Below, in pieces: positions 978 through 34,968 of a stretch of 64,000 nucleotides of DNA. The DNA is from a virus (taxonomy: Duplodnaviria > Caudoviricetes), in IMG/VR virus record IMGVR_UViG_3300044213_000090, positions 519-64,518 of that record. One strand, given 5' to 3'. Position numbers and translations under genes: made by a program. The notes below the pieces were generated by a model. That model ran no database searches and had not been told where the DNA came from. It was given only the letters and a program-made list of their open reading frames with translations. Position 1 is the first letter of the stretch. Every line of letters begins with the position of its first letter.

Positions 978-3104
978 ATGCCATTACAGAAACTACAATT
1001 TAGACCCGGACTAAACCGAGAAGGTACTGACTACTCAAACGAGGGTGGCTGGTATGACGGCGATAAAGTGCGCTTTCGTTCAGGGTTTCCAGAAAAAATT
1101 GGTGGCTGGACGCAAGTTTCTTCACAGCAATATAACGGCGTGTGTCGTTCAATATGGGTTTGGTTAGACGCAGACGCCGGTGCTGGCAACACCTATATTG
1201 GTGTAGGCACAAACACAAAATACTATATTTACTCGGCTGGTGCATATAACGACATAACGCCAATCGTAAAAACAGACACACTATCAAACCCATTTGCAAC
1301 AACACTTGGCTCTACCTCAGTTACCGTAACAGATGCTACTTATAACCCGACTGTAAGTGATTTTGTTACTTTTTCTGGCGCATCCGCTGTTGGTGGCATT
1401 ACGATTAACGGTGATTATCAGGTTAAAACAGTTTTATCTTCAACAACATACACAATCACTGCGGCTACGGCGGCAACTTCAACAGCTACAGGCGGCGGTA
1501 CGGTTACGGCTGCTTATGAATACCCATCAGGATTAAACGTATATTCGATTGGTACCGGCTGGGGTGCGGGTCCTTGGAACGCTGGCTCTAGTTCAGATCC
1601 TTGGGCGCACGGCTGGGGAACTGCTTATTCTTCTGGTATTGGTGAACAGTTACGTCTTTGGTCAAACGATAACTTTGGTGCGGACCTTGTTATTGCTCCT
1701 CGCGGCGGCCCTATTTTTTACTGGCAGGACTCTAGTGGCGTATCAACACGCGCCCAGTATTTAAGTTCTTTAGCTAACTCGGCAACGCTTCTTACAGACG
1801 CAACAACTTTCAGTTCGGGTTCTACAACAATTAATTTAACTACGGCAAATGCTCCGTATGTTTACCCATACTCTTATATTACGGGCACAGGGATTCCAGC
1901 GGGTACATATGTAACAGCAATAAACAATGTTACAGGCGTGGCAACCATTTCAAATACAACAACTGCTAATAGCTCCGGTAACTATAGTTTTTCTTATTCT
2001 GGCGCATTTGTGCCCAATCAGACCTATCAAGTTAATACTTCCGCTATTCAAGAATTTGTGGTTGCGTTTGGAGCCAACCCGTACACACCCGGAGTACCTA
2101 ATAGTACATTTAACCCTCTTCTAGTACGTTGGTCTGATCAAGCAAATGCGTATCAATGGATTCCAGAAGTAACAAATCAATCAGGTGAATTTACGCTTAC
2201 TAATGGCTCTTATATTATGGGCGCTCGTGCAACACGCCAAGAGATTTTAGTATGGACTGATTCTGCTCTATATTCTATGCAGTATATTGGCGCTCCGTAT
2301 GTTTGGGGCTTCCAGATTTTGATGGACAACATTTCTGTGATGTCGCCAAATGCAATGGTTACAGTAAATAACGTAACGTACTGGATGGGTCGAGATCGTT
2401 TCTATATGTACTCAGGCCGTGTAGAAGTTTTACCTTGTGCCTTACGCCAATACATTTTTGATGACATTAATGAGAACCAAGCGTATCAGGTATTTGCTGG
2501 CGCTAACGAAGCGTTTAACGAGGTCTGGTGGTTCTATGTAAGTGACTCAAGCGCGGGTTCTACTGTTGATAAGTATGTAATTTATAACTATTTGGATAGG
2601 GTTTGGTACTACGGTACTTTAGGACGTTCTGCTTGGTTCCAATCTGGCACACAACCTTACCCTATTGCCGCTGACTATAATGGACGACTCTTATATCATG
2701 AAAACGGCTGCGATGACAATTCAACTTCTGCAACAGCGCCTATATATGCGTATGTGCAGTCTTCAGATTTTGATATCGGGGATGGACACAACTTTGGCTT
2801 TGTGTGGCGCATATTGCCTGACGTAAACTTTAACGGGTCTACAACGAATCAGCCATCAGTGGTTATGACGGTTAAGCCTAGAGAAAACTCTGGTACTGCT
2901 TATGGCACTGCAGACTCCCCACAGATTCAATCGGCACAAAACTATACTAGTGTTCCGGAATACACAATTCAGCAATTTACGGGGCAGGTCTATACAAGGC
3001 TTAGAGGTCGTCAAATGGCGTTTAGGATTGAATCTAGTGGTATTGGTGTGGCTTGGCAGTTAGGCAGCCCTCGTATTGATATTAGACCAGATGGGCGTAG
3101 ATAA
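978..3104 (+). CDS. tail hub / DNA stabilisation protein (P22 gp10-like)
   Basis: 708 aa; N-terminus ..EGGWYDGDKVRFRSGFPEKIGGW, VRWSDQ, C-terminal PDGRR; beta-rich; precedes ejection genes. Confidence 0.65.
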   Translation: MPLQKLQFRPGLNREGTDYSNEGGWYDGDKVRFRSGFPEKIGGWTQVSSQQYNGVCRSIWVWLDADAGAGNTYIGVGTNTKYYIYSAGAYNDITPIVKTDTLSNPFATTLGSTSVTVTDATYNPTVSDFVTFSGASAVGGITINGDYQVKTVLSSTTYTITAATAATSTATGGGTVTAAYEYPSGLNVYSIGTGWGAGPWNAGSSSDPWAHGWGTAYSSGIGEQLRLWSNDNFGADLVIAPRGGPIFYWQDSSGVSTRAQYLSSLANSATLLTDATTFSSGSTTINLTTANAPYVYPYSYITGTGIPAGTYVTAINNVTGVATISNTTTANSSGNYSFSYSGAFVPNQTYQVNTSAIQEFVVAFGANPYTPGVPNSTFNPLLVRWSDQANAYQWIPEVTNQSGEFTLTNGSYIMGARATRQEILVWTDSALYSMQYIGAPYVWGFQILMDNISVMSPNAMVTVNNVTYWMGRDRFYMYSGRVEVLPCALRQYIFDDINENQAYQVFAGANEAFNEVWWFYVSDSSAGSTVDKYVIYNYLDRVWYYGTLGRSAWFQSGTQPYPIAADYNGRLLYHENGCDDNSTSATAPIYAYVQSSDFDIGDGHNFGFVWRILPDVNFNGSTTNQPSVVMTVKPRENSGTAYGTADSPQIQSAQNYTSVPEYTIQQFTGQVYTRLRGRQMAFRIESSGIGVAWQLGSPRIDIRPDGRR

Positions 3105-3406
3105 TGGCTGTAGCAAAACAATTTACCTATAACGGGCTACCGTTAGCGCCAACACCGCCTAACTTACCTATTGCGCCTACTGACTATCAACAGGCTTTTC
3201 AAGATCAGTTTTCAAACGCACTGCGTCTTTATTTTACGCAGCTGAACAACTTTTCACAGGCGATATTAACGCCTGATTCCGGTACAAAAACTCAACGCCC
3301 ACTTACTAATTTACAGGTCGGGCAACAGTTCTTTGACACTACTTTAGGCATTCCTATTTGGTGGAACGGAGCCCATTGGATAAACGCTTCCGGAACGACA
3401 GTTTAG
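3104..3406 (+). CDS. virion tail-associated protein
   Basis: Coupled TAATG start; C-terminal GQQFFDTTLGIPIWWNG motif seen in phage tail proteins. Confidence 0.5.
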   Translation: MAVAKQFTYNGLPLAPTPPNLPIAPTDYQQAFQDQFSNALRLYFTQLNNFSQAILTPDSGTKTQRPLTNLQVGQQFFDTTLGIPIWWNGAHWINASGTTV

Positions 3407-3439
3407 GTGCTAAAATCGAGAAAAAGTAAAGGATAGAAT

Positions 3440-4627
3440 ATGTCTGGTGGCGGTGGAGGAGGCGGAGGCCTTTTTAATAATCCCTTAGAACTGGCTCTTG
3501 TAGCCGGTACGGCTATTGCTGCTCCTTACGCAGCTCCAGCATTGTTTGGTGAAGGCGCCGCACTTGGCGGTCTTGGTATTGCTGGAGATAGTGCTTTAGC
3601 CTCGGGGTTAACTGGCGCTGGAATAGGCGCTTTAGGCGGGGCTGTGGCTGGCTATAATCCGGTACAAACAGGTTTAATGGGCGGTTTAGGTGGAGCTGCT
3701 GCAGGTGCTATGGGAGTTGGTGGTGCTGGTGCAGGCGCTACAGGAAATATGGCTAATGCGGGTTTAGAGTCTGGTATGGCTGGTACCGCTATGTCTAATC
3801 CAGCCGCCACAGCTGCTACCACTTCTCTTATTCCCGGCATTTCAAACACAGCTTTGGGCGTAGGTGCTGGCGGTGTCGGCTTAGCTGCTTTGATGGCTAA
3901 CGAACAGAAAAAATATGGCGTTCCTTCTCCTCAAAGTGTGACATATACAGGCGGTAATTTAGCTAAGTTTAAATACGACCCTAATCAATATACACCCGAT
4001 GTAGTAACTCCCCCTAACCCTGTATATCAAGCACAGTACGCTCAAGGTGGTCTGACAGCTGGAGGTCCAGCTAACGTCGATTTTATGGGCGGTGACATGT
4101 ATCCACAAAGCCAACAGCAGCGTTCATACTATGCCACCCCAACCCAAGCGCCTACAAGTGCCCAAGAAGTAGGTTCTCTATACGAGCCTAAGACCAATCC
4201 GCTAACCGGCGAAGAAGTAGCTCAAATGGCTGATGGCGGTAGCGTTTCTTATGACCCTAATGCAGAGCTTCAGCAACAGGCTATGCTGGCAAGACTATCT
4301 GGTTTGCCTTCGTTAACTCCAACAGCTAGCGCTGCTGGTGGCAAGATTGAGTCTTTGGGTTCTTATTCTGATGGGGGTCAAATGCTAAAAGGACCCGGTG
4401 ACGGCATGAGCGATAGTATTCCAGCTAAGATTGGCGCTAATCAACCGGCTCGTCTTGCAGATAATGAGTTTGTTGTTCCGGCTGATGTTGTCAGCCATTT
4501 AGGTAATGGTTCTAGCGATGCTGGTGCTAAAAAGCTTTACTCCATGATGGACAAAGTACGTAAAGCACGTACCGGTAAAAAAGCACAAGCCCCAAAAATT
4601 AACGCAGACAAATACATGCCAGCATGA
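3440..4627 (+). CDS. DNA ejection protein (Gly/Ala-rich)
   Basis: Hydrophobic Gly-rich N-half; C-terminal GPGDGMSDSIPA..RLADNEFVVPADVVS domain; SD AAAGGA. Confidence 0.6.
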   Translation: MSGGGGGGGGLFNNPLELALVAGTAIAAPYAAPALFGEGAALGGLGIAGDSALASGLTGAGIGALGGAVAGYNPVQTGLMGGLGGAAAGAMGVGGAGAGATGNMANAGLESGMAGTAMSNPAATAATTSLIPGISNTALGVGAGGVGLAALMANEQKKYGVPSPQSVTYTGGNLAKFKYDPNQYTPDVVTPPNPVYQAQYAQGGLTAGGPANVDFMGGDMYPQSQQQRSYYATPTQAPTSAQEVGSLYEPKTNPLTGEEVAQMADGGSVSYDPNAELQQQAMLARLSGLPSLTPTASAAGGKIESLGSYSDGGQMLKGPGDGMSDSIPAKIGANQPARLADNEFVVPADVVSHLGNGSSDAGAKKLYSMMDKVRKARTGKKAQAPKINADKYMPA

Positions 4628-15525: not shown

Positions 15526-15679
15526 CAATACCAAGTTCGGCTTTGGCTTTGACTTGGTGGTAGACGGCAGCTTTTAATCCAGCTTCTCGGGTTTCGGCTA
15601 GCTTGAGCGAAGGAACGAAGAACGCCCCACGTGGGGGCGTTGTGAGCCAAGGGTAATGCACTCTAATTTTCCTGCTCAT
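15485..15679 (-). CDS. hypothetical protein
   Basis: Last gene of the leftward arm; overlaps primase stop; YPW...GAFFVP motif. Confidence 0.55.
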   Translation of the reverse strand: MSRKIRVHYPWLTTPPRGAFFVPSLKLAETREAGLKAAVYHQVKAKAELGIVNGKLGVLFRRLA

Positions 15680-18530
15680 CTTCGTCTTCTACACGTCGGC
15701 TAATCTGCATCACGTTCACACGCATGCTTGGGCCTTTTGTTTTAGACAGCATGTTTTTCTTTTCTATATAGTTAACCTTAAAGCCTTTGAGCGCTTCCAT
15801 CTGTTTCTTAAATACGGAATATCCAAAGCTCATAGATACACAATGTGAACGTAGCAGTTGTTCTTCAATATAGTAATCAATCCAGCCGGGGTTCATGTTT
15901 CTATCAATGCGCCCAGCTACTTGCGAACGAGTAATAGATTGGTCCACTACACCGCCTTCTCCTAGTGATGCCTCGATTACTCCATTGAAGTTCTTAACCA
16001 CAATAAACTTGCCGTAGTTCTCACGAGTGTAAGCGTTAAGCACATCTTCCGCAGATTTCCTAGAACCAAAGACTACCGCCCTAGCCCGATCAACCATTCC
16101 ACGAAGGACTTCAATGACAGGGCTAACAGGAATATCAATAATATTAGCGTACTTCCTACCCAAAAGAATGGCAATACTAACCACAGCAGCGTTTCCAGCA
16201 CTCCAGTAGCGCTCGTCATTCGTTGTATTGAACTCTTTCTTGAGCATCTCGTGCGTCTTCTTGAATACATCTTTAACAATCTCCTGATTCTGTACCATCC
16301 AACTAATGAGCATTTCACCCGCTACACCGTAATTGGTTTTAAGCTGGTCTAGGACTGCGGATTCTACATCACTCCATTCCAGTTTGACTGTTGGGCACTC
16401 TTCCAAAACACGAAGCATTTCAGCCTGTGATGCGTGCTTACGCATACCACCCAAGAAGTCAAACACGTGCGTATTAGAAGTTAACAAGGCGGTGGATTTC
16501 CAGTTCAGTACGTTCAATCTTTCCTTGTTAGCGTTGCTCTCCATACGCTCCTTACCCTTACCTTGTGATTGGTCTAGTAAGAATGTAGGAAGCCACTCAA
16601 AATCACCCCGGTTCTTAGCGGTAATCTCGTCGGTTACTAAAGGCAAGCTACCTAAAATACCCTGACGTTGTTGCAAAGCCACCGCTGAAGTTGCCTGACC
16701 TACACGATACATGCCGGGTTGACCAAAGAAACTTTCAGCAATAGACAGCGCTAACGATTTACCTGTACCTGATTCACTAGAGCCCAAGTGGTATGTCATA
16801 CCATTAAATCCTGAGAACTCCATAAGCAACGATGCTGGACCAACTAAACCCATAGTCAAGATATTCCAAATCTCTCGCTTAATAAAAAGATTGATAACGT
16901 CTTTCCAGCCATCAACTGTTCCTGATGGTTGTGTATGCTGATTGACGTTTTCAAGACCGGGTGTAGGAACAAATATCTTCTTGCCTGTCGGGGTATAGAT
17001 ATGACTGTTATAAACGAATGTCTTGTCTTCTTGCCATCCGCAGTTGTTTGGCACTTTAATTGCTTTCTTATTAGCACTAGCCTGTTCAACACAAGCCCGC
17101 ACATAATCAGATAGGTTCTTATCATTGCCAGCGCCAAACGCCGCAATGATGTTTTGGTTTGCCAAAGCTTTAACTGTTTCATCTTTACTTACCACAGCTC
17201 GTTGTGGAAGCAGAATATCAATTGCCCCTTCGGGTCTACAAGCTACCATGTGCACAATGTGGTCGCCATTACGGTTCAATATATCTACCACAAATAAGTC
17301 ATACGGCAGTAGCATGATCTGCTTCCGCGTTTTGTTTCCCTGAGAATCTTCCTCAGTTTTATCTACATAAATACCGCCGCTTTGCCCGTAGCTATATCCT
17401 CTAGGTGGAACTGGTTTGGTAACTGTCGGCGCTTGAATCTCCGCCGCTTCTTCCTCAGCCGCCATGCGTTCCATGACAATTTCTTTTTCAGTATTGTCGG
17501 TCTTTAATTCTCTGCCCCAGATGAGCGGGTTTGTTATCTTGCCATTAAAGTGCGGACAGCTTGTGCATACCCCCGGATTTACTTCATCCATCTTAAGGCA
17601 TGGGCTTGGGCCTTTAGTGCTATTCCATTTGGCGTTGATGCGGTCTTCATCGTATGGGTGCATAGCACCTAACTTTTGTGCCCACTCGTAGCCATCATCG
17701 CAACGCTTAGCCCATGAAACTATATTGAAGAACAACGGCTCCATGCCGTCGTCGCTTGCGTGTTCCTGATAGTATTTTAACTGCGCACAGCCGTCAGCTT
17801 TTTTAATTATGTTTTTGAAGAAAGTGCTGGAGTTTTCAAGAAGCTTGACACTGGTTGCCCCTGTTTCTTTTGGGCGTTTGCCGGGTATGTTTAAAGAAGT
17901 TTCTTCGTACGTAGTAGTCAGGTGGTCTTTAATGATGGCGTTGATTTGTTCAAGCTCAAAAGTTATGCCTTCCACTTTAATGCGGACTTTGCGTGGCTTT
18001 TCTTTCTTGTAGTTGTTGGTGTCGGGCACCCGCAGTACCCTTGACGCATCGCCTGTTACGCCAAAGTCAATATTAAAACCTTTTTGTTTGCATAGACGCT
18101 TAAGGTTCTCTGCAACGGGTTTCCATACTGCTATGTCTGCGTCTTCAGTTAGAGGCCAGTAGACGTGTAATCCGCCACCACTATCATTGACGTATGGCTC
18201 GCCGAGGTCTATTAGCGAAGTTTCGGACAAAAAGGTACCCAATGCCGCCACAGCCGCCTGTTGACTATCATAATCCTTTCCATCGCCACAATCAATATCC
18301 AAGAATAGCGAACGCATCTTGACAGCGTTCTTGGAAAGCCTACTAGATTCACCAAATGATGCTAACGCAAAGTATGCGTCCAAGCCCCGTTGACTAAAAT
18401 CAACGGCAACTTTATATAAGCTGTCAATGTCATCGACAAAGACATGTTCTTTTTTGTCTGTACTCAGTTCACAGGCGCAATACTTACCTGAGGACGGAAG
18501 CACAGTCGCTAGGAACTCCTGCGACTTCAT
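15663..18530 (-). CDS. DNA primase-helicase (RepB/AEP-like primase + DUF927 + P-loop)
   Basis: LFLDID, SGGGLHVYW, RVLRVP primase motifs; C..C..C cluster; SESGTGKS Walker A; LVTDE Walker B. Confidence 0.85.
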   Translation of the reverse strand: MKSQEFLATVLPSSGKYCACELSTDKKEHVFVDDIDSLYKVAVDFSQRGLDAYFALASFGESSRLSKNAVKMRSLFLDIDCGDGKDYDSQQAAVAALGTFLSETSLIDLGEPYVNDSGGGLHVYWPLTEDADIAVWKPVAENLKRLCKQKGFNIDFGVTGDASRVLRVPDTNNYKKEKPRKVRIKVEGITFELEQINAIIKDHLTTTYEETSLNIPGKRPKETGATSVKLLENSSTFFKNIIKKADGCAQLKYYQEHASDDGMEPLFFNIVSWAKRCDDGYEWAQKLGAMHPYDEDRINAKWNSTKGPSPCLKMDEVNPGVCTSCPHFNGKITNPLIWGRELKTDNTEKEIVMERMAAEEEAAEIQAPTVTKPVPPRGYSYGQSGGIYVDKTEEDSQGNKTRKQIMLLPYDLFVVDILNRNGDHIVHMVACRPEGAIDILLPQRAVVSKDETVKALANQNIIAAFGAGNDKNLSDYVRACVEQASANKKAIKVPNNCGWQEDKTFVYNSHIYTPTGKKIFVPTPGLENVNQHTQPSGTVDGWKDVINLFIKREIWNILTMGLVGPASLLMEFSGFNGMTYHLGSSESGTGKSLALSIAESFFGQPGMYRVGQATSAVALQQRQGILGSLPLVTDEITAKNRGDFEWLPTFLLDQSQGKGKERMESNANKERLNVLNWKSTALLTSNTHVFDFLGGMRKHASQAEMLRVLEECPTVKLEWSDVESAVLDQLKTNYGVAGEMLISWMVQNQEIVKDVFKKTHEMLKKEFNTTNDERYWSAGNAAVVSIAILLGRKYANIIDIPVSPVIEVLRGMVDRARAVVFGSRKSAEDVLNAYTRENYGKFIVVKNFNGVIEASLGEGGVVDQSITRSQVAGRIDRNMNPGWIDYYIEEQLLRSHCVSMSFGYSVFKKQMEALKGFKVNYIEKKNMLSKTKGPSMRVNVMQISRRVEDEDEQEN

Positions 18531-20388: not shown

Positions 20389-21948
20389 TTACTGATTTAC
20401 TTCTTCTTTATACAAGCTTAACAGAATATCGTGACCTCTAACCCGCTTTTCTAATTGGGTAAACATCTTCTTTTCTATCTCGCTACCTTGTAAGTGTATC
20501 ACAGTTACTTTTGTGGAATCTTGACCAATTCGGTCAGCTCTAGCAATACACTGCAAGTACGTCTCAACCGACATTACAGGCCCATAAAAGACTACTGTAT
20601 CTGCGGCAGTTAGCGTTACACCATGACTTGCCGCTTGTGGTTGAACTACTAGTATACGAGGTTCGGGGAGCGTTTGAAAGCGCTTAAATATATCGGTTCT
20701 TTTGGATACCGACACATCCCCATGAATGACCTCGGATGCTACGTTGTGCTTTAGTAAGTGGTTATGGATAGTATCTATGCTGTGGCGGAATGGCGCAAAA
20801 ACGATTACTTTGCGATTGGTTTCCTCTAGTACTTCCAGTAGTACCGACAAGCGTGGAGCACAGTCAAACTCAACAACTTCTTGCCCATCTGTATAAGCCG
20901 CCCCCGCAGATATTTGTAGCAACTTTGATACACCAGCCGCCGCATTAACTGCAGTAATTGTTTCACCAGCCGCTTCCATAACCATCTTATCTTTGAGCAA
21001 GCGATAGTATTTAACTTGCTGGGGTGTCAGGGGTATTTCTCGGGTCTCTGTGAGGACTGGCGGTAGATCGGTACATTCTTCTTTGGTAAAGCGTATAGCG
21101 GGTTGTAGTGCGTCAAAAACAGCCTCAGCCGCCCCATGCTTGGGAACCCACTTAAACTGGGTTAATTTCTGCATAACTTTATCCCGCCATGCGGTAGCGA
21201 ATTTAGGTACTCCACTAGGGTTTACCAGCTTAGCCAAACCATAGGCATCCACAGGCGATTGTGAGGCTGGTGTGCCCGTCATCATCCACAGTAGGGTGTT
21301 GGGGTTCAGAATCTTATTTAAAGACTTCCAGCGCTTTGTAGAGGGGTTCTTGTAGGCATTAGCCTCATCGACTATCACCAAATCAAACTTCCCATTAGCA
21401 ACCACCTCGTCAGCTATCAGGTTCAAGCCGTCATAATTCACCACTACAAACTCATAGTTGCCCTGTACCATTTCAATACGTCTTGTGGCTTGGGCATGGT
21501 GCGCTACGATAACCGACCTATGGATAATGCTCTTGCCAATGCCGTTCATCCAAGCGTCGTGCATGATAGACAACGGACACAAGATTAAACAACGACGAAC
21601 TTTCCCTAACTTCATAAGGTAGTCAGCCGCCCATAAAGCACTAAGGGTTTTCCCTGTACCGGGGTCATTAAACACGAAAGCTCTTGAATGTAGCGTAAGA
21701 AATTCTGCGGTCTCTACTTGGTGCTCAAACGGCTTATACATACCCGGCCAGTTATACCTAGCGCGGATGGGTGAAGGCACATTCTTAACACCTAGGTTGC
21801 GGAGCACACGCACTTCGTCTAAGCCCCATTTCACAGCGACTTTAGATATATTGCCGTTTGTTTCCACAATGGCGTGTTTAGGTATCACGCTGTATTTTTC
21901 AGGGTTGCGGGTGGTAAACACCAGCGCCTTATCTTCTATGATTTGCAT
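20389..21948 (-). CDS. SNF2-like superfamily 2 helicase
   Basis: DPGTGKT, VIVDEA, MTGTP, HGVTLTAA, QCIARADRIGQ. Confidence 0.9.
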   Translation of the reverse strand: MQIIEDKALVFTTRNPEKYSVIPKHAIVETNGNISKVAVKWGLDEVRVLRNLGVKNVPSPIRARYNWPGMYKPFEHQVETAEFLTLHSRAFVFNDPGTGKTLSALWAADYLMKLGKVRRCLILCPLSIMHDAWMNGIGKSIIHRSVIVAHHAQATRRIEMVQGNYEFVVVNYDGLNLIADEVVANGKFDLVIVDEANAYKNPSTKRWKSLNKILNPNTLLWMMTGTPASQSPVDAYGLAKLVNPSGVPKFATAWRDKVMQKLTQFKWVPKHGAAEAVFDALQPAIRFTKEECTDLPPVLTETREIPLTPQQVKYYRLLKDKMVMEAAGETITAVNAAAGVSKLLQISAGAAYTDGQEVVEFDCAPRLSVLLEVLEETNRKVIVFAPFRHSIDTIHNHLLKHNVASEVIHGDVSVSKRTDIFKRFQTLPEPRILVVQPQAASHGVTLTAADTVVFYGPVMSVETYLQCIARADRIGQDSTKVTVIHLQGSEIEKKMFTQLEKRVRGHDILLSLYKEEVNQ

Positions 21949-22963: not shown

Positions 22964-23200
22964 TTATTTTTTATTATCTGACATATTAGCTTTGGGAGAT
23001 CGCAGTCTTAAGTTGCCGCTTGTTGATTTCCCGCCTGACTTTAAGGGCTTGATATGGTCTATCTGTTTACCCTTGCGGTCGATGCCTTCTTTGTCGTACT
23101 TACGTCTTGCACGCTGGCGCTCGAGTTGGTCTTCGGTTTCACCGCTTGCTTTTTGTAACTTGTATGCGTGTTTGTAGTCACGTTTGCCGTTCTTTTGCAT
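22964..23200 (-). CDS. small HNH endonuclease-like protein
   Basis: IDHIKPLKSGG..SGNLRLRS..AN. Confidence 0.75.
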   Translation of the reverse strand: MQKNGKRDYKHAYKLQKASGETEDQLERQRARRKYDKEGIDRKGKQIDHIKPLKSGGKSTSGNLRLRSPKANMSDNKK

Positions 23201-23208
23201 AGTCTTTC

Positions 23209-23883
23209 CTAATGTTTAGGGTTATGTTCACAAGACTTAACTTGGCACCATCCGCATAGAGGTGTACTTGTAGGGTTCCAAACCCCAGTAGCGTGGCTAT
23301 TAGCTAGCTTAGCTACTCTTTCTCTATACAACTGCCAATGAAAGTCTTTTTCATCTGCCATCATTTTACTCTTAACCATACTGTTTTTAACCACGAAAAG
23401 CAAAGATGAGTTAACTTGGCGTATGTGGGGGAAGTGAGCGAACACCATCAAAGACATCAGAATTAGCTGGTCTCGGTCAGGGTATTTATCGTTGCCTGTT
23501 TTATAGTCAACTACCCAAGCCTTTAAGCCGTCGTCATCAATGATTACTAAGTCAGCAATACCTCTAGCCCAAACATCATCAGCGTCAAATGCACAGGGTG
23601 TTAAGTCTTCCCTTACACCCATCTCGAGCTCAGGTAGTTTTCTACCCTTTATGCCCATCAATCTTTCCACAATCGGTTCCATAAAGGCGTACTCGGGTGG
23701 GATTGGTGTGCCGTTTTTAACATAAAGCTCAGCCGCTTCATGCACTTGCTTGCCATACTTAGTATGAACAGTTTCTTGGAATGGGTAGTTCTTAAGCACG
23801 TTTACTTCATAGAATCTTCTAGCACACCCTTCGTAATTTTTGAGACCGCTGTGTGACCATTTAATTTTTTTGATTTCGCTCAT
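23209..23883 (-). CDS. PD-(D/E)xK Cas4-like exonuclease
   Basis: WSHS..C, G..VH, GIAD, VVDYKTG, C-terminal C..C...C. Confidence 0.85.
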   Translation of the reverse strand: MSEIKKIKWSHSGLKNYEGCARRFYEVNVLKNYPFQETVHTKYGKQVHEAAELYVKNGTPIPPEYAFMEPIVERLMGIKGRKLPELEMGVREDLTPCAFDADDVWARGIADLVIIDDDGLKAWVVDYKTGNDKYPDRDQLILMSLMVFAHFPHIRQVNSSLLFVVKNSMVKSKMMADEKDFHWQLYRERVAKLANSHATGVWNPTSTPLCGWCQVKSCEHNPKH

Positions 23884-24374
23884 AGGGTTCCTGCTGGATG
23901 GAGTATTCTTTTTGCTGTTACGTATGCCGCATGCGCCTCTTCTGCGGTGTTAAAATAGCCTAGATGTTTTGGTTTTCCGTTGATTTTTATTTTGGCTATG
24001 TATTTATTGTTTAGTTTATGCCAACTAACCCCTAGTAAATGCGACGATTTATTATTTGGTCTGTGCGCACGTTGGTTTTGTCCGTTTAATATATGATTTG
24101 ATAACCGCAAATTGCAAAACCTATTGTCTAGGGGGTTGCCATTTATATGGTCAAGCATGTCGGTAGGCCACTTTCCTGTTTCAAACAGCCATACAAGTTT
24201 GTGCGTGAATATCTGTTTTTTATTAACGCCAATTTGTGCTCTACCCAAAGCGTTTATGCGCCCAGCTTTCATACCTTTTCTAGCCTTTGGGTGTTTGTTA
24301 TCCACAAGCCAGTAAAACGCACCTTCATCGGGTGCGTACCGTAGTATGCTTTTTAAATATTTTAGCGTCGTCAT
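23880..24374 (-). CDS. free-standing HNH-AP2 homing endonuclease
   Basis: HKLVW..LDHINGNPLDNRFCNLR plus AP2 domain GVSW..YIAKI..HLGYFNTAEEAHAAY; start at 24374 or 24380. Confidence 0.9.
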   Translation of the reverse strand: MTTLKYLKSILRYAPDEGAFYWLVDNKHPKARKGMKAGRINALGRAQIGVNKKQIFTHKLVWLFETGKWPTDMLDHINGNPLDNRFCNLRLSNHILNGQNQRAHRPNNKSSHLLGVSWHKLNNKYIAKIKINGKPKHLGYFNTAEEAHAAYVTAKRILHPAGTL

Positions 24375-24380
24375 AAACAT

Positions 24381-24413: not shown

Positions 24414-27251
24414 TTATTTTGCGTCTCCGTATCTTTTAGCATAGCTTGAGTCTGCGTCAAGTGGTATGCCCTTCATATATGGCGGTTCTTTAATCATCTG
24501 CGCATGAACCCATGTTTCCGCTATCTCAGCTTCATTCTCAGGTACAAGCACTACAACTTCATCGTGAACAGTCAACACACAAGGGTATCTTTCCTGTATC
24601 CGTAACATTCCATCAGTCATCACGCAACGGGCAACGGCCTGAACAATGTTTTCTACCAGCTTACCGCCGTATAGTTTTTTATTGTCAGACCCATAAGACC
24701 ACTGCGCTCTGCCTTTATCGTCATATGCAACTGTTAAATTCGGATAACGCAAAGACAAACCACTAGGTAGGATTATACGCTCTTTTTCAAATTTTAGACA
24801 CTTGTATTCATAAGTATTTCCCTTATACAAACTGTGCTCTATCAGCGAACCACACAACTCCCAAAAGCTAACGACTGGGTGTGACTTCTCTCTGTAAATC
24901 TCAATAATCTTTTTAGCCGCTAGGCTGTGGACGGCAAGCTCTCTGTCGGTACAAGTGTGCGGTATTTTGTTAAGTAATTCCACGTTCCTATCCCAACCCA
25001 TAAAGTCCGCCGCATCTTGTTGGGTTACTCCAAGTTGTTTAGCAAATGCCTTATCGTATAGAGTAGGCGGTGCGCCGAGAAACCCAGTCAATAACTGGGC
25101 AGAAAAGCTAGCCCAACCCATACCATAGCCACAGTTATGTACAATCATTGGACCCGCTTCAGTAAGAACCATATATCTATTTCTTGGACCCGCATAAGCG
25201 ATGTCGTAAGTCTGCATTTTCTGCTTCAAGAAGTTTGATTGTTTTTCTAAGCTCTTCGACGTCTCGTGCTTTGATTTTTCTTTTATTTGACATGTTGACG
25301 CTCCTAGAACAGAACCGCAAATTGTTTGGTTCATATCCTTTATCATTGTCGATTCTGTCAAGCTGGTACTCGGGGACGTCCCAACCATCAAGGGTGACAA
25401 GATATTTAAGAAATGCAACCCTGTCTTTAATCCATCCCGGATATACGCCGATACCTCTTCCACCGTAGTCCGGATAGATTTTACTTTTTGGATTGGTACA
25501 TCGGACAATAATCGAGCTGATTCTGTCAAGTAGTCTGTCCCTGTGGTTTCTGTCAGGGCAAATGGCGTGATACCCCTTCTGTTCCCAACGAGTCTCGACA
25601 GCTTTTCTTTTAGCACACACGTTACATCTTGTAGTTTTCTGCCTCTTGAAGTTGTGCCTATCAACTCTTCCCTTCCAACCACATGAACAGGCGACGTACG
25701 GGTGAAATCCTTTGTTGTGGTTGACCCATCCGACGATGGTAAGCTCGCCTTGTTTATAGCCGATAGGAAACGGAGCGGGTTTGTACATACCTCTTTCCAT
25801 TCCTGCCATCCATGTTCCGTCAGGATTTCGTGGTCCTGCGTAGCGCTTATGCCCCATGCTGTCAGTACTTCCTTTTCCCCTTGAGGAAGCAGTCCTTGAT
25901 GTTTTACCCATTCTTCACCATCCCATAACAAATCCGTATCCTGAACACTTATTATGGACTTCCATCCGGCATCGGTCAACACTTTAGTGTCTGCGCCAAA
26001 ACAACCTAGCAGCGCCGATTTGGCCGACTGTCTAAGAGTCGGATGTGTTTCCTTACTGAGGTTCGGGATACCGAACATTTGCGCTCCGAACGCCGAATAC
26101 GCATCCTGTCCCGAATTGAAAATGTCAAGTAGCGCTTGATAATCTGCGAGGTACGCCAAGACCCTAGGCTCAATTTGGGAGAGGTCGCAGACCACAAGGG
26201 TGTAGCCTTTCGGCGCTTTGATAGCTTTGCGTAAGAAAGAGTTCCGTTTAAGGTTTTGTAGATTAAGCCCCGAGCCCTTGCTCGCCGACCAACGACCGGT
26301 ATGCGCTCCGTAATAATTAAGTGGGACAGGGAGCGTACCTCTTTGAGCAATATCTGCGAATCTCTGTGCTCTTGTTCGTTCCAGCGTAGATTTAACCTTG
26401 AGCCTAGCTTCACACAAGAGTGCCACATCCTCATTGTCAGAATTGAGTAGCGCTTGGAAGAGTGCGTCGTTTTTAGCAAATGCGAAAGTTTCTTTATTGG
26501 TCGTTTTGCTAATCTTTTTCGGCGGGCTAACTCCAAGCGTTTCCAAAATAACAGCGAACTTATCGTTACTAGCCAACGACGATTCTTCAATGCCAATTTT
26601 TTGTAAGAGCGCTTCTCTTTTGGTGCGTTCGTCCTCAATCGCATTTTGTAATATCTCCTTGTCTAGCTCAAGCGTAGGGAATACAAACATCTTGAGCGTC
26701 ATGTCAATCAATTTTAGCTCGTCGTTAGGGAACCCGCCGTCAACTTCACCCATCAGGTTTCTAAATATCTGAGCGCATAGCTCTACATCATGTTCGCAGT
26801 AGACGGCTAACTCTTGTTCAATTTCATATGTTATCTCGGCCAAGCCGTTAGTGCTATGCACCGCTTGTCCTTTAGGTGGTAGCCCATAATACTCGGCTAA
26901 CGTCGCCAAGCTGTTGCCCACTTCCACACCACGTAAAGCACGAGCCATAGAAAGAGAATCAAGAATAAAGGCAGGGCGAGCACCATATACCCAACAAAGG
27001 ATAGAGACATCAAACTGAGCGTTATGTGCAAGGACATTTACATTCTCCCAATCAATCGAGCTAATCCACGCTGGTATATCGTCATGCGTAACCCAATATG
27101 TTAAGTCTTCGTCAAGCCACTTATACCCAACGCCAAACGCTTTAAACATGGGGCTACGTACGTATTGTTCCGTAGTCATCTTACTTAGCGTGTAGTCTTT
27201 ACTGTCCCAACGAGTTTCAAAATCAACTACGAGTGTTCTTCTTCCGTACAT
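24414..27251 (-). CDS. family A DNA polymerase with 3'-5' exonuclease, intein-containing
   Basis: VVDFET, AHNAQFD (exonuclease); HTGRWS, NLQN, DLSQIEPR (motif A), RQSAK..LG|CGYG (motif B, split by intein), TVHDE (motif C). Confidence 0.95.
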   Translation of the reverse strand: MYGRRTLVVDFETRWDSKDYTLSKMTTEQYVRSPMFKAFGVGYKWLDEDLTYWVTHDDIPAWISSIDWENVNVLAHNAQFDVSILCWVYGARPAFILDSLSMARALRGVEVGNSLATLAEYYGLPPKGQAVHSTNGLAEITYEIEQELAVYCEHDVELCAQIFRNLMGEVDGGFPNDELKLIDMTLKMFVFPTLELDKEILQNAIEDERTKREALLQKIGIEESSLASNDKFAVILETLGVSPPKKISKTTNKETFAFAKNDALFQALLNSDNEDVALLCEARLKVKSTLERTRAQRFADIAQRGTLPVPLNYYGAHTGRWSASKGSGLNLQNLKRNSFLRKAIKAPKGYTLVVCDLSQIEPRVLAYLADYQALLDIFNSGQDAYSAFGAQMFGIPNLSKETHPTLRQSAKSALLGCFGADTKVLTDAGWKSIISVQDTDLLWDGEEWVKHQGLLPQGEKEVLTAWGISATQDHEILTEHGWQEWKEVCTNPLRFLSAINKASLPSSDGSTTTKDFTRTSPVHVVGREELIGTTSRGRKLQDVTCVLKEKLSRLVGNRRGITPFALTETTGTDYLTESARLLSDVPIQKVKSIRTTVEEVSAYIRDGLKTGLHFLNILSPLMVGTSPSTSLTESTMIKDMNQTICGSVLGASTCQIKEKSKHETSKSLEKQSNFLKQKMQTYDIAYAGPRNRYMVLTEAGPMIVHNCGYGMGWASFSAQLLTGFLGAPPTLYDKAFAKQLGVTQQDAADFMGWDRNVELLNKIPHTCTDRELAVHSLAAKKIIEIYREKSHPVVSFWELCGSLIEHSLYKGNTYEYKCLKFEKERIILPSGLSLRYPNLTVAYDDKGRAQWSYGSDNKKLYGGKLVENIVQAVARCVMTDGMLRIQERYPCVLTVHDEVVVLVPENEAEIAETWVHAQMIKEPPYMKGIPLDADSSYAKRYGDAK
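25134..26003 (-). mobile_element. intein (290 aa) in polymerase motif B
   Basis: Starts CFGADTKVLT (block A), TQDHEIL (block B), TYDI (block F), ends IVHN followed by Cys+1; removal restores SAKSALLG-CGYGMG. Confidence 0.93.
25177..25788 (-). CDS. HNH homing endonuclease overprinted out of frame inside the intein
   Basis: CSCG..RCNVC, RC.NP....YPDYGGRGI, LDRIDNDKGYEPNNLRF..N; frame open from 25911; candidate ATGs at 25857, 25809, 25800, 25788. Confidence 0.85.
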   Translation of the reverse strand: MYKPAPFPIGYKQGELTIVGWVNHNKGFHPYVACSCGWKGRVDRHNFKRQKTTRCNVCAKRKAVETRWEQKGYHAICPDRNHRDRLLDRISSIIVRCTNPKSKIYPDYGGRGIGVYPGWIKDRVAFLKYLVTLDGWDVPEYQLDRIDNDKGYEPNNLRFCSRSVNMSNKRKIKARDVEELRKTIKLLEAENADLRHRLCGSKK

Positions 27252-33765: not shown

Positions 33766-34968
33766 TTATGAATAAATACGAACAGTCTTACCCTTGTTGC
33801 TAACGAATTGATCGTTGTCAACTACACCGAATAGGATAGGGCAGTCAGGTAATACATAGTCTGATTCAATGTAGCCATCAGATAAAACAATGCAAGCTTT
33901 GGGCTTGAGTTTGTGCTTGGTAAAGTATTCTGATACGCAAGTCAAGCGTGTGCCACCACCACCTTTGGGTTGAAGCATTTCAGGTATGCGGTGGTAGTCC
34001 TGCGGTTTGAAGATTTGCTCACCCTCAATGTCGCACTCCCACCATAGGACACGCACTTGCTCAGGCTTGACGTTCTCGCAGATACGAGCAATCTCACCAA
34101 AGACTGTGCCATACAGACCCATCATAGAACCCGAGGTATCGCAAGCTACAACTAACTCGCCTGTTGATTCCGAGAAGTGTGATGGCATGAGTATGCCTTG
34201 CGGTAGCAAGCGTTTGTTAGGTGGGGCAAAGCGGGAATAGTCGTCGCCTTCGCATAGTTGTGTAACGAACTCACGTAGATGTTCACGCCAGTTGGTGTCA
34301 CGTTTCTGTGTTAGCTTGTCGAGTGGGCTACCACCCCTAGCATTACCTCGTTCTTGTATGCGCTTGGCTAGCATCTTGCCTTGATGTAGTGCCTCGCTGA
34401 TCTCGGTTGCAGTCTTAGCTTCGATTGCTTCGGCAAGTTTACCTAGTATGTGTCCGTCAAGCGTGCCGTCACCATCACCGCTACCCGCAGTTGGGTCGCC
34501 ACCTGATTCCTCACACTCCTTGATTAAGTCTTGCAATACTTCAACAAACGACCAGCCAAAGTATTTCTTATCGAGTAAAGGTGCGACTGCTGTTGGGTGT
34601 TCGATAAAGCTATGCGTTGGGTCTGTTTCCTCTATCGTGCCGTTGACTACGTAATCCATAGCCTGATTGCACAACATAGGATACTTCTCGCATAACGCTT
34701 TATACGCAGTGCAGTGATGTAGTGCTTTGTGTAACGACTCATGCAAAACAAGAAAGCGTAGTTGTTTCCTAGATAAAGGTTCGATAAAGCTAGGCGCATA
34801 GATAACATTACGACCATCAGTTGCGGCAGTCTTGATGTCCTCGTCTAGCTTTACGTCACCGACATAAACAATACCCGATAGGGTAGCGAAGCTAGCGTTG
34901 TTACTGATGTCAACGTGGCACGCAATAATGCGGTCGTTCAAAGACATCTTATCCCATATGCTTGACAT
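33766..34968 (-). CDS. DUF2201-type metallopeptidase + vWA domain protein
   Basis: TAATDG, LHESLH (HExxH), DTSGSM (MIDAS), GGGGT, SDG. Confidence 0.85.
   Translation of the reverse strand: MSSIWDKMSLNDRIIACHVDISNNASFATLSGIVYVGDVKLDEDIKTAATDGRNVIYAPSFIEPLSRKQLRFLVLHESLHKALHHCTAYKALCEKYPMLCNQAMDYVVNGTIEETDPTHSFIEHPTAVAPLLDKKYFGWSFVEVLQDLIKECEESGGDPTAGSGDGDGTLDGHILGKLAEAIEAKTATEISEALHQGKMLAKRIQERGNARGGSPLDKLTQKRDTNWREHLREFVTQLCEGDDYSRFAPPNKRLLPQGILMPSHFSESTGELVVACDTSGSMMGLYGTVFGEIARICENVKPEQVRVLWWECDIEGEQIFKPQDYHRIPEMLQPKGGGGTRLTCVSEYFTKHKLKPKACIVLSDGYIESDYVLPDCPILFGVVDNDQFVSNKGKTVRIYS

What the first reader, a model, noticed from the sequence alone, without database searches (positions are those of the whole stretch)
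25134..26003. Intein whose homing endonuclease is overprinted in a different reading frame
Seen: the polymerase ORF carries a 290-aa intein (CFGADTK.., TQDH, YDI, IVHN|C) inserted in motif B between LLG and CGYG. In the polymerase frame its central ~200 aa show no LAGLIDADG or HNH motif and read as Ser/Thr-rich filler, yet contain no stop codon. On the same strand in the -1/+2 frame there is a complete ORF (25788-25177, open from 25911) with Cys pairs, YPDYGGRGI and LDRIDNDKGYEPNNLRF..N. It has its own ATGs and its own TAG, and lies wholly within the intein, overlapping block F. Established: inteins normally carry the endonuclease in frame between the splicing blocks. Inference: a free-standing HNH gene invaded a mini-intein out of frame. 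Because the insert is spliced out, the polymerase frame only has to stay stop-free. The result is a dual-coding mobile element whose nuclease could be translated independently of the polymerase.
Basis: partly seen in the sequence, partly recalled or inferred. Interest (0 to 1): 0.93.

Follow-up and report, generated by a model that had tools for sequence, protein, structure and literature searches.

The report
Polymerase intein with out-of-frame nuclease gene
A self-splicing protein insert (intein) in this phage's DNA polymerase gene carries its likely homing nuclease as a separate gene written one base out of step over the same DNA; the layout is real, under selection and common in phages, but this kind of intein was first described in 2025.

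Summary
The PolA-type polymerase ORF (24414-27251, minus strand) holds a 290-codon class-1 intein (25134-26003) in motif B. A 244-codon HNH-like ORF (25177-25911) lies inside it, same strand, -1 frame.

It is not an assembly artefact:
- A second assembly of a run holding the stretch is identical, with no gaps.
- The same two-frame layout and offset occur in 84 of 84 related loci.

Selection switches frame along the intein. It follows the polymerase frame in the splicing blocks and the HNH frame in the centre. The polymerase frame has no stop in 76 of 76 HNH cores, against 4.8% of synonymous shuffles.

AlphaFold folds the polymerase-frame product as a mini-intein with a 166-residue disordered loop, and the HNH-frame product as a confident domain.

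The window's polymerase sits inside a clade of 65 intein-less alleles. Three other metagenome runs hold alleles lacking exactly these 870 bases. Both point to recent homing.

Expression, splicing and cleavage are untested.

The kind is already in print (bioRxiv 10.1101/2025.01.02.630785). This scan noted it before on other DNA, 57 findings. Verdict: new member of a known kind, moderate interest.

The parts
24414..27251 (-). DNA polymerase precursor ORF, family A, with 3'-5' exonuclease. 945 codons, intein included.
   Evidence: PF00476 E 3.6e-25; phrog_17 E 3.8e-72.
25134..26003 (-). Class-1 intein, 290 codons in the polymerase frame. It sits in motif B between ...SALLG and CGYGMG.
   Evidence: Cys1, TQDH, YDI and HN|C are read. 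Intein-less alleles lack exactly these columns or bases. Foldseek gives mini-inteins only among the top hits.
25737..26003 (-). N-terminal splicing lobe of the intein (residues 1-89, blocks A and B plus two helices).
   Evidence: pLDDT 96-98 (81 in the last block). Polymerase-frame conservation is 0.46-0.71 here.
25239..25736 (-). Polymerase-frame 'filler' (intein residues 90-255). Stop-free, Ser/Thr-rich, predicted disordered.
   Evidence: pLDDT below 50 over residues 90-255. Conservation 0.26-0.46. S+T make up 23% against 10% in the extein.
25134..25238 (-). C-terminal splicing lobe (residues 256-290, blocks F and G, ending HN).
   Evidence: pLDDT 96-97. Conservation 0.62-0.77.
25177..25911 (-). 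HNH-like endonuclease ORF in the -1 frame, 244 codons plus TAG. Candidate starts at 25911, 25809, 25800 and 25788.
   Evidence: (188 homologs). The frame is kept open from here in 67 of 74 loci, against 15% of shuffles.
25273..25764 (-). Folded core of the HNH-like protein (residues about 50-213). It has an N-terminal beta domain with invariant Cys75/77/96/99, YGGRGI, and LDRIDN..GY.P.N.R.
   Evidence: pLDDT 87-97. Invariant columns. Variation peaks at HNH codon position 3.
25189..25269 (-). C-terminal helix of the HNH-like protein (residues 215-241). Its end overlaps intein block F.
   Evidence: DSSP H215-241. In the overlap, variation follows the polymerase frame.

Best explanation
This is a mobile class-1 intein in motif B of a phage family-A DNA polymerase. 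Its homing nuclease is not a domain of the intein protein. It is a separate gene overprinted in the -1 frame of the same strand.

Translating the polymerase frame gives a precursor in which the two halves of a mini-intein are joined by a disordered loop of about 166 residues. That loop is only the out-of-frame reading of the nuclease gene. Splicing is inferred to remove all of it, so this stretch need only stay free of stop codons.

Translating the -1 frame gives a protein of about 200-244 residues, HNH-like, with a four-Cys beta domain, a nuclease-like core and a C-terminal helix. Translation most likely starts internally, at one of the NTG codons created by polymerase-frame Trp codons (25911, 25809 or 25800). 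This protein is inferred to cut or nick intein-less polymerase alleles near the SALLG/CGYG codons. Repair then copies the whole element in.

Shown: the anatomy, selection on both frames, the predicted folds, the patchy distribution and the exact intein-less alleles. Inferred: splicing, independent translation, nuclease activity and target, and origin from a free-standing HNH gene.
For: 1. Both frames are open with the same offset in 84 of 84 loci: the window, the 80 best IMG/VR hits, Sodalis phage SO-1, Salmonella phage Ent2 and EBPR siphovirus 2. HNH identity to the window falls as low as 38%.
2. Conservation switches frame. The polymerase frame scores 0.62-0.77 in the splicing blocks and 0.26-0.46 in the centre. 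The HNH frame scores 0.58-0.80 over most of the centre (0.41-0.49 in three bins).
3. Entropy by HNH codon position is 1.00/0.82/1.60 in the core. It is 1.31/1.00/0.91 and 1.04/0.66/0.69 where the ORF overlaps blocks B and F.
4. There are 0 polymerase-frame stops in 76 of 76 distinct cores. Synonymous shuffles give a mean of 2.9 stops and only 4.8% are stop-free. 0 of 116 Met are followed by K/N/T/I/M, the pairs that cannot avoid a stop.
5. In AlphaFold the intein residues 1-89 and 256-290 score pLDDT 96-98 and residues 90-255 score below 50. Top Foldseek hits are mini-inteins, for example Ssp DnaB 6frg at E 3.6e-4, prob 1.00. The HNH ORF scores a mean pLDDT of 82, and above 87 for residues 50-210.
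6. Splicing residues are kept. C1 and terminal HN|C are each present in 81 of 84 rows. T55 and H58 are invariant in 36 of 36.
7. Mobility. Of 120 polymerases in the tree, 55 carry the intein and 65 lack it. The window is nested, with support 96-99, inside the clade of 65 intein-less alleles. Its nearest relative, P0124, is 87% identical.
8. Contigs in three other freshwater runs skip exactly the 870 nt.
9. Free-standing homologs exist, for example Escherichia phage U1G gp49, which lies between two halves of a split polymerase gene.
10. The HNH frame is kept open from intein nt 92 in 67 of 74 loci, against 15% of shuffles.
Against: - No expression, splicing or cleavage data exist. No RNA holder was listed.
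- The nuclease label rests on PHROG profiles alone. Pfam and NCBIfam gave nothing. The PDB sequence-profile search gave only five chance-level matches at E 0.57 or more, none a nuclease.
- The best fold match is weak and tied with an unrelated chain: PacI HNH, Z 5.6.
- The motif reads LDRID, with Arg invariant in 21 of 21. From recall, typical HNH proteins have His there, so catalysis may be atypical or absent.
- The Shine-Dalgarno-like sequence before 25911 is fully explained by the conserved VWDGxEW codons. Resampled codons give -6.81 against -6.92 observed. It is therefore no independent evidence for that start.
- The tree used FastTree and only the 120 best hits. Its root is unknown. 'Regain' is a parsimony inference, with 2 changes as the minimum.
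Confidence: 0.8

Rival explanations
1. Assembly or sequencing artefact. The HNH domain is really in frame, and two compensating indels in the contig create the apparent frame change.
For: None found. It is a reasonable prior for a single metagenome contig.
Against: Logan's separate assembly of run X1 gives a 4107-nt contig identical over 24900-26300, with 0 other letters and 0 gaps, at depth 81. That run may be the source sample. 83 other loci from separate assemblies and cultured phages show the same offset. Chance would not keep the polymerase frame open over 166 codons.
Confidence: 0.01
2. The -1-frame ORF is a relic. The intein still splices, but the nuclease is inactive or unexpressed, and the element is now inherited only vertically.
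For: The Arg in LDRID sits where, from recall, typical HNH proteins have His. Curated nuclease profiles give no hit. L042 has its HNH frame cut to 160 codons, so decay does occur.
Against: Purifying selection follows the HNH frame across relatives only 38-68% identical. 42 columns are invariant in 21 of 21 sequences. The window's intein lies inside a clade of 65 intein-less alleles. A dead ORF would gather stops, since the polymerase frame does not protect it.
Confidence: 0.07
3. The nuclease is made by -1 ribosomal frameshifting from the polymerase frame, as a fusion with the N-extein and the N-lobe of the intein. It is not made by internal initiation.
For: The HNH frame is the -1 frame. It is kept open well upstream of the folded core, over block B.
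Against: Canonical slippery heptamers occur in only 8 of 74 loci, at no conserved place. NTG codons stand at the column of 25911 in 64 of 68 loci, and at the column of 25809 in 69 of 75. APSE-4 carries a homologous ORF in the other (+1) offset, which a -1 shift could not serve.
Confidence: 0.07
4. The -1-frame protein serves something other than homing, such as DNA binding, regulation or phage competition. It is merely housed in the intein's dispensable loop.
For: The catalytic motif is atypical. The N-terminal domain gives weak matches to Tudor/SH3-like nucleic-acid or RNA-polymerase binding domains, Z 4.0-4.6. The window holds further free-standing HNH genes.
Against: The ORF always travels with the intein: 84 of 84 loci. 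The patchy presence of the intein, with precise intein-less alleles, fits homing. Homologs lie in or beside polymerase genes in unrelated phages.
Confidence: 0.05

Closest known systems
[quoted passage not shown] I read the abstract, sections 8 and 15, and passages.
   Same: A same-strand nuclease ORF sits in frame 3 (-1) inside the endonuclease slot of an otherwise normal intein. The in-frame reading gives no recognisable structure. Related alleles without the intein exist. The authors propose invasion of an intein by a free-standing endonuclease.
   Different: - Different nuclease family: best PHROG hits here are HNH families, and the endonuclease VII family scores only E 0.00098.
- Different host gene and site.
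- Different phages: uncultured freshwater phages, Jerseyvirus, Dhillonvirus.
[quoted passage not shown]
ShiLan domain: 'hidden' out-of-frame HNH inside a mycobacteriophage DNA methylase gene (PMC11855218). I read the abstract, section 4.3 and passages.
   Same: An HNH ORF overprinted in frame 3 of a host gene whose own frame stays free of stops. The in-frame reading is predicted to be a loop. How the nuclease is translated is an open question in both cases.
   Different: ShiLan has no splicing domains, so the insert stays in the host protein. Here complete splicing blocks flank the insert.
Canonical full-length inteins with an in-frame homing endonuclease domain (LAGLIDADG or HNH). Recalled general knowledge, also cited.
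   Same: A Hint splicing domain interrupted at the same general slot by the mobility function. Insertion at a conserved catalytic motif of a replication protein.
   Different: The nuclease here is not part of the intein polypeptide. A search for longer fused forms found 1 protein only, unrelated in architecture (695 aa, PF12705). That is weak evidence that no in-frame version exists.
Fractured genes: split inteins flanking a free-standing endonuclease gene (Dassa et al. 2009, PMC2677866). I saw the search listing and the start of the abstract only.
   Same: Intein plus a separately translated endonuclease gene at one locus. The same evolutionary model applies.
   Different: The polymerase ORF here is continuous. 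The intein is not split, and the two genes overlap instead of lying side by side.
GenBank annotation of Sodalis phage SO-1 (NC_013600): gp39 HNH endonuclease nested in gp38 DNA polymerase.
   Same: It is the same family. The window HNH is 38% identical, with the same offset and the same polymerase site.
   Different: That record calls it a 'type I self-splicing intron'. The Ent1-3 records annotate only an intein 'encoding splicing domains'. Neither record states the dual coding.

Membership tests
Class-1 intein (Hint domain) | N-terminal Cys/Ser nucleophile and block B TxxH | tested here: met
   Cys1 and TQDH are in the window. C1, T55 and H58 are invariant in 36 of 36. C1 is present in 81 of 84 rows; the 3 exceptions are 2 rows cut by contig ends (L030, L031) and WIN, for which the script printed the wrong strand, while its Cys1 is read.
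Class-1 intein (Hint domain) | C-terminal His-Asn followed by Cys/Ser/Thr +1 | tested here: met
   IVHN|CGYG in the window. HN|C is present in 81 of 84 rows. L060 has SN, L030 is misaligned or cut, and L066 is cut.
Class-1 intein (Hint domain) | Hint fold | tested here: met
   The AF2 model scores pLDDT 96-98 for residues 1-89 and 256-290. Foldseek top hits are all inteins, with 7 at E <= 0.001 and prob 1.00.
Class-1 intein (Hint domain) | In-frame insertion in a conserved host-protein site, with intein-less alleles | tested here: met
   65 of the 120 relatives listed lack exactly the 290 residues. Contigs in 3 runs skip exactly 870 nt.
Class-1 intein (Hint domain) | Protein splicing activity | not testable with these tools
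   Needs expression and a gel or mass spectrometry.
HNH / beta-beta-alpha-Me endonuclease | Significant match to curated HNH profiles | tested here: inconclusive
   PHROG families annotated as HNH match strongly: phrog_374 E 2.8e-29, phrog_3377 E 6.3e-21. Pfam (E <= 0.1) and NCBIfam (E <= 1) give nothing. The PDB sequence-profile search (E <= 10) gave only five chance-level, non-nuclease matches.
HNH / beta-beta-alpha-Me endonuclease | Beta-beta-alpha-metal fold | tested here: inconclusive
   VIA-align gives PacI HNH (3m7k_A) at Z 5.6, rmsd 2.6, 76 residues aligned, tied with an unrelated chain. Foldseek finds no match at E <= 0.001.
HNH / beta-beta-alpha-Me endonuclease | Catalytic His ... 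Asn ... His/Asn residues | tested here: inconclusive
   D185, R186, D188, N197, N206 and N209 are invariant in 21 of 21. The motif reads LDRID. That His is usual at the Arg position is recalled; I did not align to a canonical profile.
HNH / beta-beta-alpha-Me endonuclease | Site-specific DNA nicking or cleavage | not testable with these tools
   Needs purified protein and an intein-less allele as substrate.
Inteins with an out-of-frame, same-strand homing endonuclease (Gosselin et al. 2025 preprint) | Endonuclease ORF within the intein, same strand, different frame, with the host frame open | tested here: met
   (84 of 84).
Inteins with an out-of-frame, same-strand homing endonuclease (Gosselin et al. 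2025 preprint) | Endonuclease VII-like nuclease (IPR004211) | tested here: inconclusive
   Only a weak hit to phrog_1035 'endonuclease VII' (E 0.00098), against E 2.8e-29 for HNH families. I made no direct comparison with the preprint's sequences, whose supplements are closed.
Fractured gene / split intein with free-standing endonuclease (Dassa et al. 2009) | Host gene split into two ORFs, each carrying an intein half | tested here: not met
   One continuous 945-codon ORF.

The most novel reading that the evidence does not exclude
The nuclease gene is locked into the splicing domain, not merely housed in its loop. Its translation start would lie inside the Hint-coding sequence. There the conserved VWDGxEW codons supply both a Shine-Dalgarno-like purine run and an NTG start (25911). 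About 45 N-terminal codons and about 17 C-terminal codons of the nuclease are overprinted on splicing blocks B and F.

Selection keeps the nuclease frame open across block B: 67 of 74 loci, against 15% of shuffles. If so, neither part can recombine away from the other, which would explain why this two-frame design has stayed stable across phage lineages whose nuclease is only 38-68% identical to the window's.

Together with the APSE-4 intein (homologous ORF, other offset, other polymerase site) and U1G (a free-standing homolog splitting a polymerase gene), the family would show living stages of how inteins acquire endonucleases.
Probability: 0.3. Interest if true: 0.6.

Novelty: new member of a known kind. 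Interest (0 to 1): 0.45.

Why it matters
Inteins are usually taught as one polypeptide that both splices and homes. This family shows the two jobs can be written in two reading frames of the same DNA and stay so across deep divergence.

- It supports the 'splicing first, endonuclease captured later' view of intein origin.
- It is a clean natural case of overlapping genes in which one frame needs only to avoid stops.
- Cultured, easily handled carriers exist, such as Salmonella Jerseyvirus and E. coli/Shigella Dhillonvirus phages. Splicing, internal initiation and homing could be tested directly in them.
- For annotation: gene callers miss the nested gene or mislabel it. SO-1 calls it an 'intron', and the Ent1-3 records say 'splicing domains' only.

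Tried and rejected
- **DNA search of the phage collection.** blastn of the polymerase gene against 'phages' found no match. Relatives are only detectable at protein level.
- **Nuclease identification.** Pfam and NCBIfam gave nothing for the HNH ORF. The PDB sequence profile gave only five chance-level, non-nuclease matches at E 0.57 or more, and Foldseek against the PDB gave no match at E <= 0.001. VIA-align gave only Z 5.6 to PacI. The nuclease label therefore stays provisional.
- **Shine-Dalgarno signal as evidence for the 25911 start.** Duplex energy is <= -6 in 98% of 64 loci. I rejected it as evidence because resampling synonymous codons gives the same energy, -6.81 against -6.92, and 0 of 64 loci fall below 5%.
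- **Selection for a soluble filler.** I tested for avoidance of T at HNH third positions, which are polymerase second positions. None was seen: T3 is 0.241 against 0.190 in the extein, and lower in only 17 of 72 loci.
- **-1 frameshift signals.** Slippery heptamers occur in 8 of 74 loci and are not conserved in position.
- **In-frame fused forms.** The 'longer' search found 1 protein, 695 aa with PF12705. This is weak evidence of absence.
- **RNA evidence.** No RNA holder was listed, so nothing can be said on expression.
- **Runs X2-X4.** They hold only small shares of the stretch. I use them only for the contigs that bridge the 870-nt skip.
- **Literature searches for this family.** Searches found no paper describing an out-of-frame HNH in PolA inteins of Jerseyvirus, Dhillonvirus, APSE or uncultured phages. 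Subscription papers and all supplements, including Gosselin et al. Supplemental Table 1, were not visible and may bear on this.
- **Rows dropped.** Duplicate HNH proteins (84 reduced to 76). Loci cut by contig ends or lacking Cys1 in the segment (76 reduced to 74; to 72). P0121, which is the window's own protein, was dropped from the tree.


Full report
**What is there**

The window is nearly all of a 64,518-base virus record, judged 97% complete. Bases 15.6-28 kb hold a replication module on the minus strand:
- primase/helicase (15663-18530)
- helicase (20389-21948)
- a Cas4-like exonuclease (23209-23883)
- a free-standing HNH gene (23880-24380)
- a 945-codon family-A DNA polymerase (24414-27251)

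The polymerase frame reads ...RQSAKSALLG / CFGADTKVLT...TQDH...YDIAYAGPRNRYMVLTEAGPMIVHN / CGYGMGWA.... So a 290-codon element with the hallmarks of a class-1 intein interrupts motif B at 26003-25134.

Inside it, on the same strand and 92 nt after the intein's first base (the -1 frame), runs a 244-codon ORF (25911-25177) with its own ATGs and a TAG.

**It is not an artefact**

Logan's separate assembly of a run that holds the stretch gives a 4107-nt contig identical over 24900-26300, with no gaps, at depth 81. That run may be the source sample.

The stronger argument comes from relatives. I took the 80 best IMG/VR hits to the -1-frame protein. These were chosen only by similarity to that protein, from 535 relatives reported. 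I added three cultured or named phages found by tblastn.
- In 84 of 84 loci, the window included, the frame one base further on is open right across the match, as part of a 425-1237-codon ORF. These are the polymerases; the shortest are cut by contig ends.
- The third frame is full of stops.
- The HNH frame is open for 225 codons or more in 82 of 84. L042 is cut to 160 codons, and L066 is cut by a contig end.
- In Sodalis phage SO-1 the nested ORF is annotated as gp39, HNH endonuclease, inside gp38. In Salmonella phage Ent2 the same stretch is annotated as an intein 'encoding splicing domains'.

**Both frames are under selection, in different places**

- Column conservation over the 84 loci. 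The polymerase frame scores 0.62-0.77 in the splicing blocks (26006-25797 and 25226-25107) but 0.26-0.46 in the centre. The HNH frame scores 0.58-0.80 in most of the centre (25766-25287), dipping to 0.41-0.49 in three bins.
- Entropy by codon position over 76 distinct sequences. In the HNH core it is 1.00/0.82/1.60 at HNH positions 1/2/3, a wobble pattern in the HNH frame. Where the ORF overlaps block B it is 1.31/1.00/0.91, and where it overlaps block F it is 1.04/0.66/0.69. HNH position 1 is polymerase position 3, so these are wobble patterns in the polymerase frame.
- The polymerase frame has no stop in 76 of 76 cores, and the third frame averages 11.9. Shuffling synonymous HNH codons within each sequence gives 2.9 polymerase-frame stops on average and leaves only 4.8% of shuffles open (1% for the window).
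- None of 116 Met in the cores is followed by K, N, T, I or M. Those are the only dipeptides that cannot be encoded without a polymerase-frame TGA.
- Beyond stop avoidance I found no sign that the filler's composition is selected.

**What the two products look like**

With an alignment of 36 polymerase-frame inteins, AlphaFold gives pLDDT 96-98 for residues 1-89 and 256-290, and below 50 for residues 90-255. The confident part matches only inteins in the PDB: Ssp DnaB mini-intein, gp41-1, Mtu RecA and others, with 7 hits at E <= 0.001. C1, T55, H58 and N290 are invariant in 36 of 36. HN|C is present in 81 of 84 rows.

The -1-frame protein, with 21 sequences, folds with a mean pLDDT of 82:
- residues 1-25 are disordered
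- a small beta domain carries invariant Cys75/77/96/99
- a helical/beta core (to about residue 213) carries YGGRGI and LDRIDN..GY.P.N.R...N..N.R
- a long C-terminal helix follows

Its identity as a nuclease rests on strong matches to PHROG families annotated HNH and on a weak fold match to the HNH restriction enzyme PacI (Z 5.6, tied with an unrelated chain). Pfam and NCBIfam gave nothing, the PDB sequence-profile search gave only chance-level non-nuclease matches, and Foldseek gave nothing at E <= 0.001. The motif has Arg where I recall typical HNH proteins having His, so the chemistry may be atypical.

**Mobility**

The 120 best polymerase relatives listed, plus the window, split into 56 with the 290-residue insert and 65 with none of it. 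The 56 include the window's own database entry, P0121. Dropping P0121 leaves 55 with the insert and 65 without in the tree.

On an extein-only FastTree, the window sits with local support of 96-99 inside the clade formed by all 65 intein-less alleles. Its nearest neighbour is 87% identical. The other 54 intein carriers lie outside that clade. The minimum is two changes, against about 40 in label shuffles. One gain into an intein-less lineage is far simpler than seven or more precise losses. This is still parsimony on an unrooted quick tree.

Independently, contigs from three other freshwater runs, from three studies, join 25130 to 26001 or 25134 to 26005, skipping exactly the 870 nt. These are natural empty sites in close relatives.

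Free-standing homologs of the nuclease are common in phages. In Escherichia phage U1G one lies between the two halves of a split polymerase gene, at another site. I recognised no intein halves there by eye and did not test this with profiles.

The APSE-4 polymerase has an intein at a different site, carrying a homologous ORF in the other offset (+1), again with the polymerase frame open. [quoted passage not shown]

**How the nuclease might be made**

All candidate starts are NTG codons created by polymerase-frame Trp codons (xxN TGG):
- column of 25911: 64 of 68 loci are ATG, GTG or TTG
- column of 25809: 69 of 75
- column of 25800: 52 of 75

The 25911 column is preceded by a Shine-Dalgarno-like stretch in 98% of loci. 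However, resampling synonymous codons reproduces that signal. It is therefore a by-product of the conserved VWDGxEW peptide and not independent evidence.

A better clue is that the HNH frame has no stop from intein nt 92 (= 25911) onward in 67 of 74 loci. Only 15% of synonymous shuffles of the splicing-domain codons stay open there, and real stops cluster just upstream, at nt 71, 86 and 89. This suggests translation starts at or near 25911, giving a disordered N-terminal extension of about 45 residues overprinted on block B.

Slippery heptamers for -1 frameshifting are rare and not conserved (8 of 74).

**Comparison with what is known**

[quoted passage not shown] It calls this unreported until then and proposes invasion of inteins by free-standing endonucleases.

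A 2025 paper (PMC11855218) describes an out-of-frame 'hidden' HNH in a methylase gene, without splicing domains.

My four literature searches found no description of the present family: PolA motif B, a YGGRGI/LDRID HNH-like nuclease, in Jerseyvirus, Dhillonvirus and many uncultured phages.

This scan has already noted the same layout on other DNA: 57 findings in at least 50 genomes. One of them was later re-checked with 'what was seen stands'.

**Verdict**

Splicing, separate translation and homing cleavage remain inferences. In kind, this is a new member, from a large and undescribed family, of a recently described class. It is not a new class. Interest is moderate. Its main value is that cultured carriers make the open questions directly testable: the start site, whether the nuclease drives homing, and how inteins capture endonucleases.

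Noticed in passing
window 23880-24380 (-): A free-standing HNH endonuclease gene (166 aa, phrog_99 E 1.2e-54) lies directly downstream of the polymerase gene, whose stop is at 24414. It also matches phrog_374 over another part of that profile (E 8.3e-14).
   Followed up: partly
window 33766-34968 (-) and 22964-23200 (-): There are two more nuclease-like genes. One is a 400-aa protein matching phrog_1314 'HNH endonuclease' (E 2.9e-64). The other is a 78-aa ORF with an HNH-like ...DHIKPLKSGG...N motif (phrog_4590, unknown function). This phage carries several putative homing genes.
   Followed up: partly
L085 (APSE-4, EU794056.1), locus about 1150-2250: The P45 DNA polymerase has an intein (CLAKGT...IVHN|C) at a different polymerase site. 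It carries a homologous YGGRGI/LDRIN ORF in the +1 offset, not -1, and the polymerase frame is open across it. This may be an independent capture of the same nuclease family.
   Followed up: partly
L084 (Escherichia phage U1G, NC_070872.1), 1187-4606: DNA polymerase I is annotated as two CDS with a homologous free-standing HNH gene (gp49) between them. The split lies before motif A, not at motif B. I saw no intein halves by eye and did not test this with profiles.
   Followed up: partly
window 27149-27251 (-): The database protein for this polymerase (P0121) has 911 aa, 34 fewer than the longest ORF. That start would remove the VVDFET exonuclease motif near the N-terminus, so the called start is probably too far downstream.
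   Followed up: no
L023 and L024 (IMG/VR loci): Two relatives have a longer intein (364 codons against about 290). The tblastn match to the HNH is displaced, so there is an extra insertion of about 75 codons upstream of the HNH core with both frames still open.
   Followed up: no
L002 (Salmonella phage Ent2), 4682-5681: The neighbouring helicase gene of Jerseyvirus phages is annotated with a second intein of the ordinary kind, with an in-frame LAGLIDADG. One genome therefore carries both architectures.
   Followed up: no
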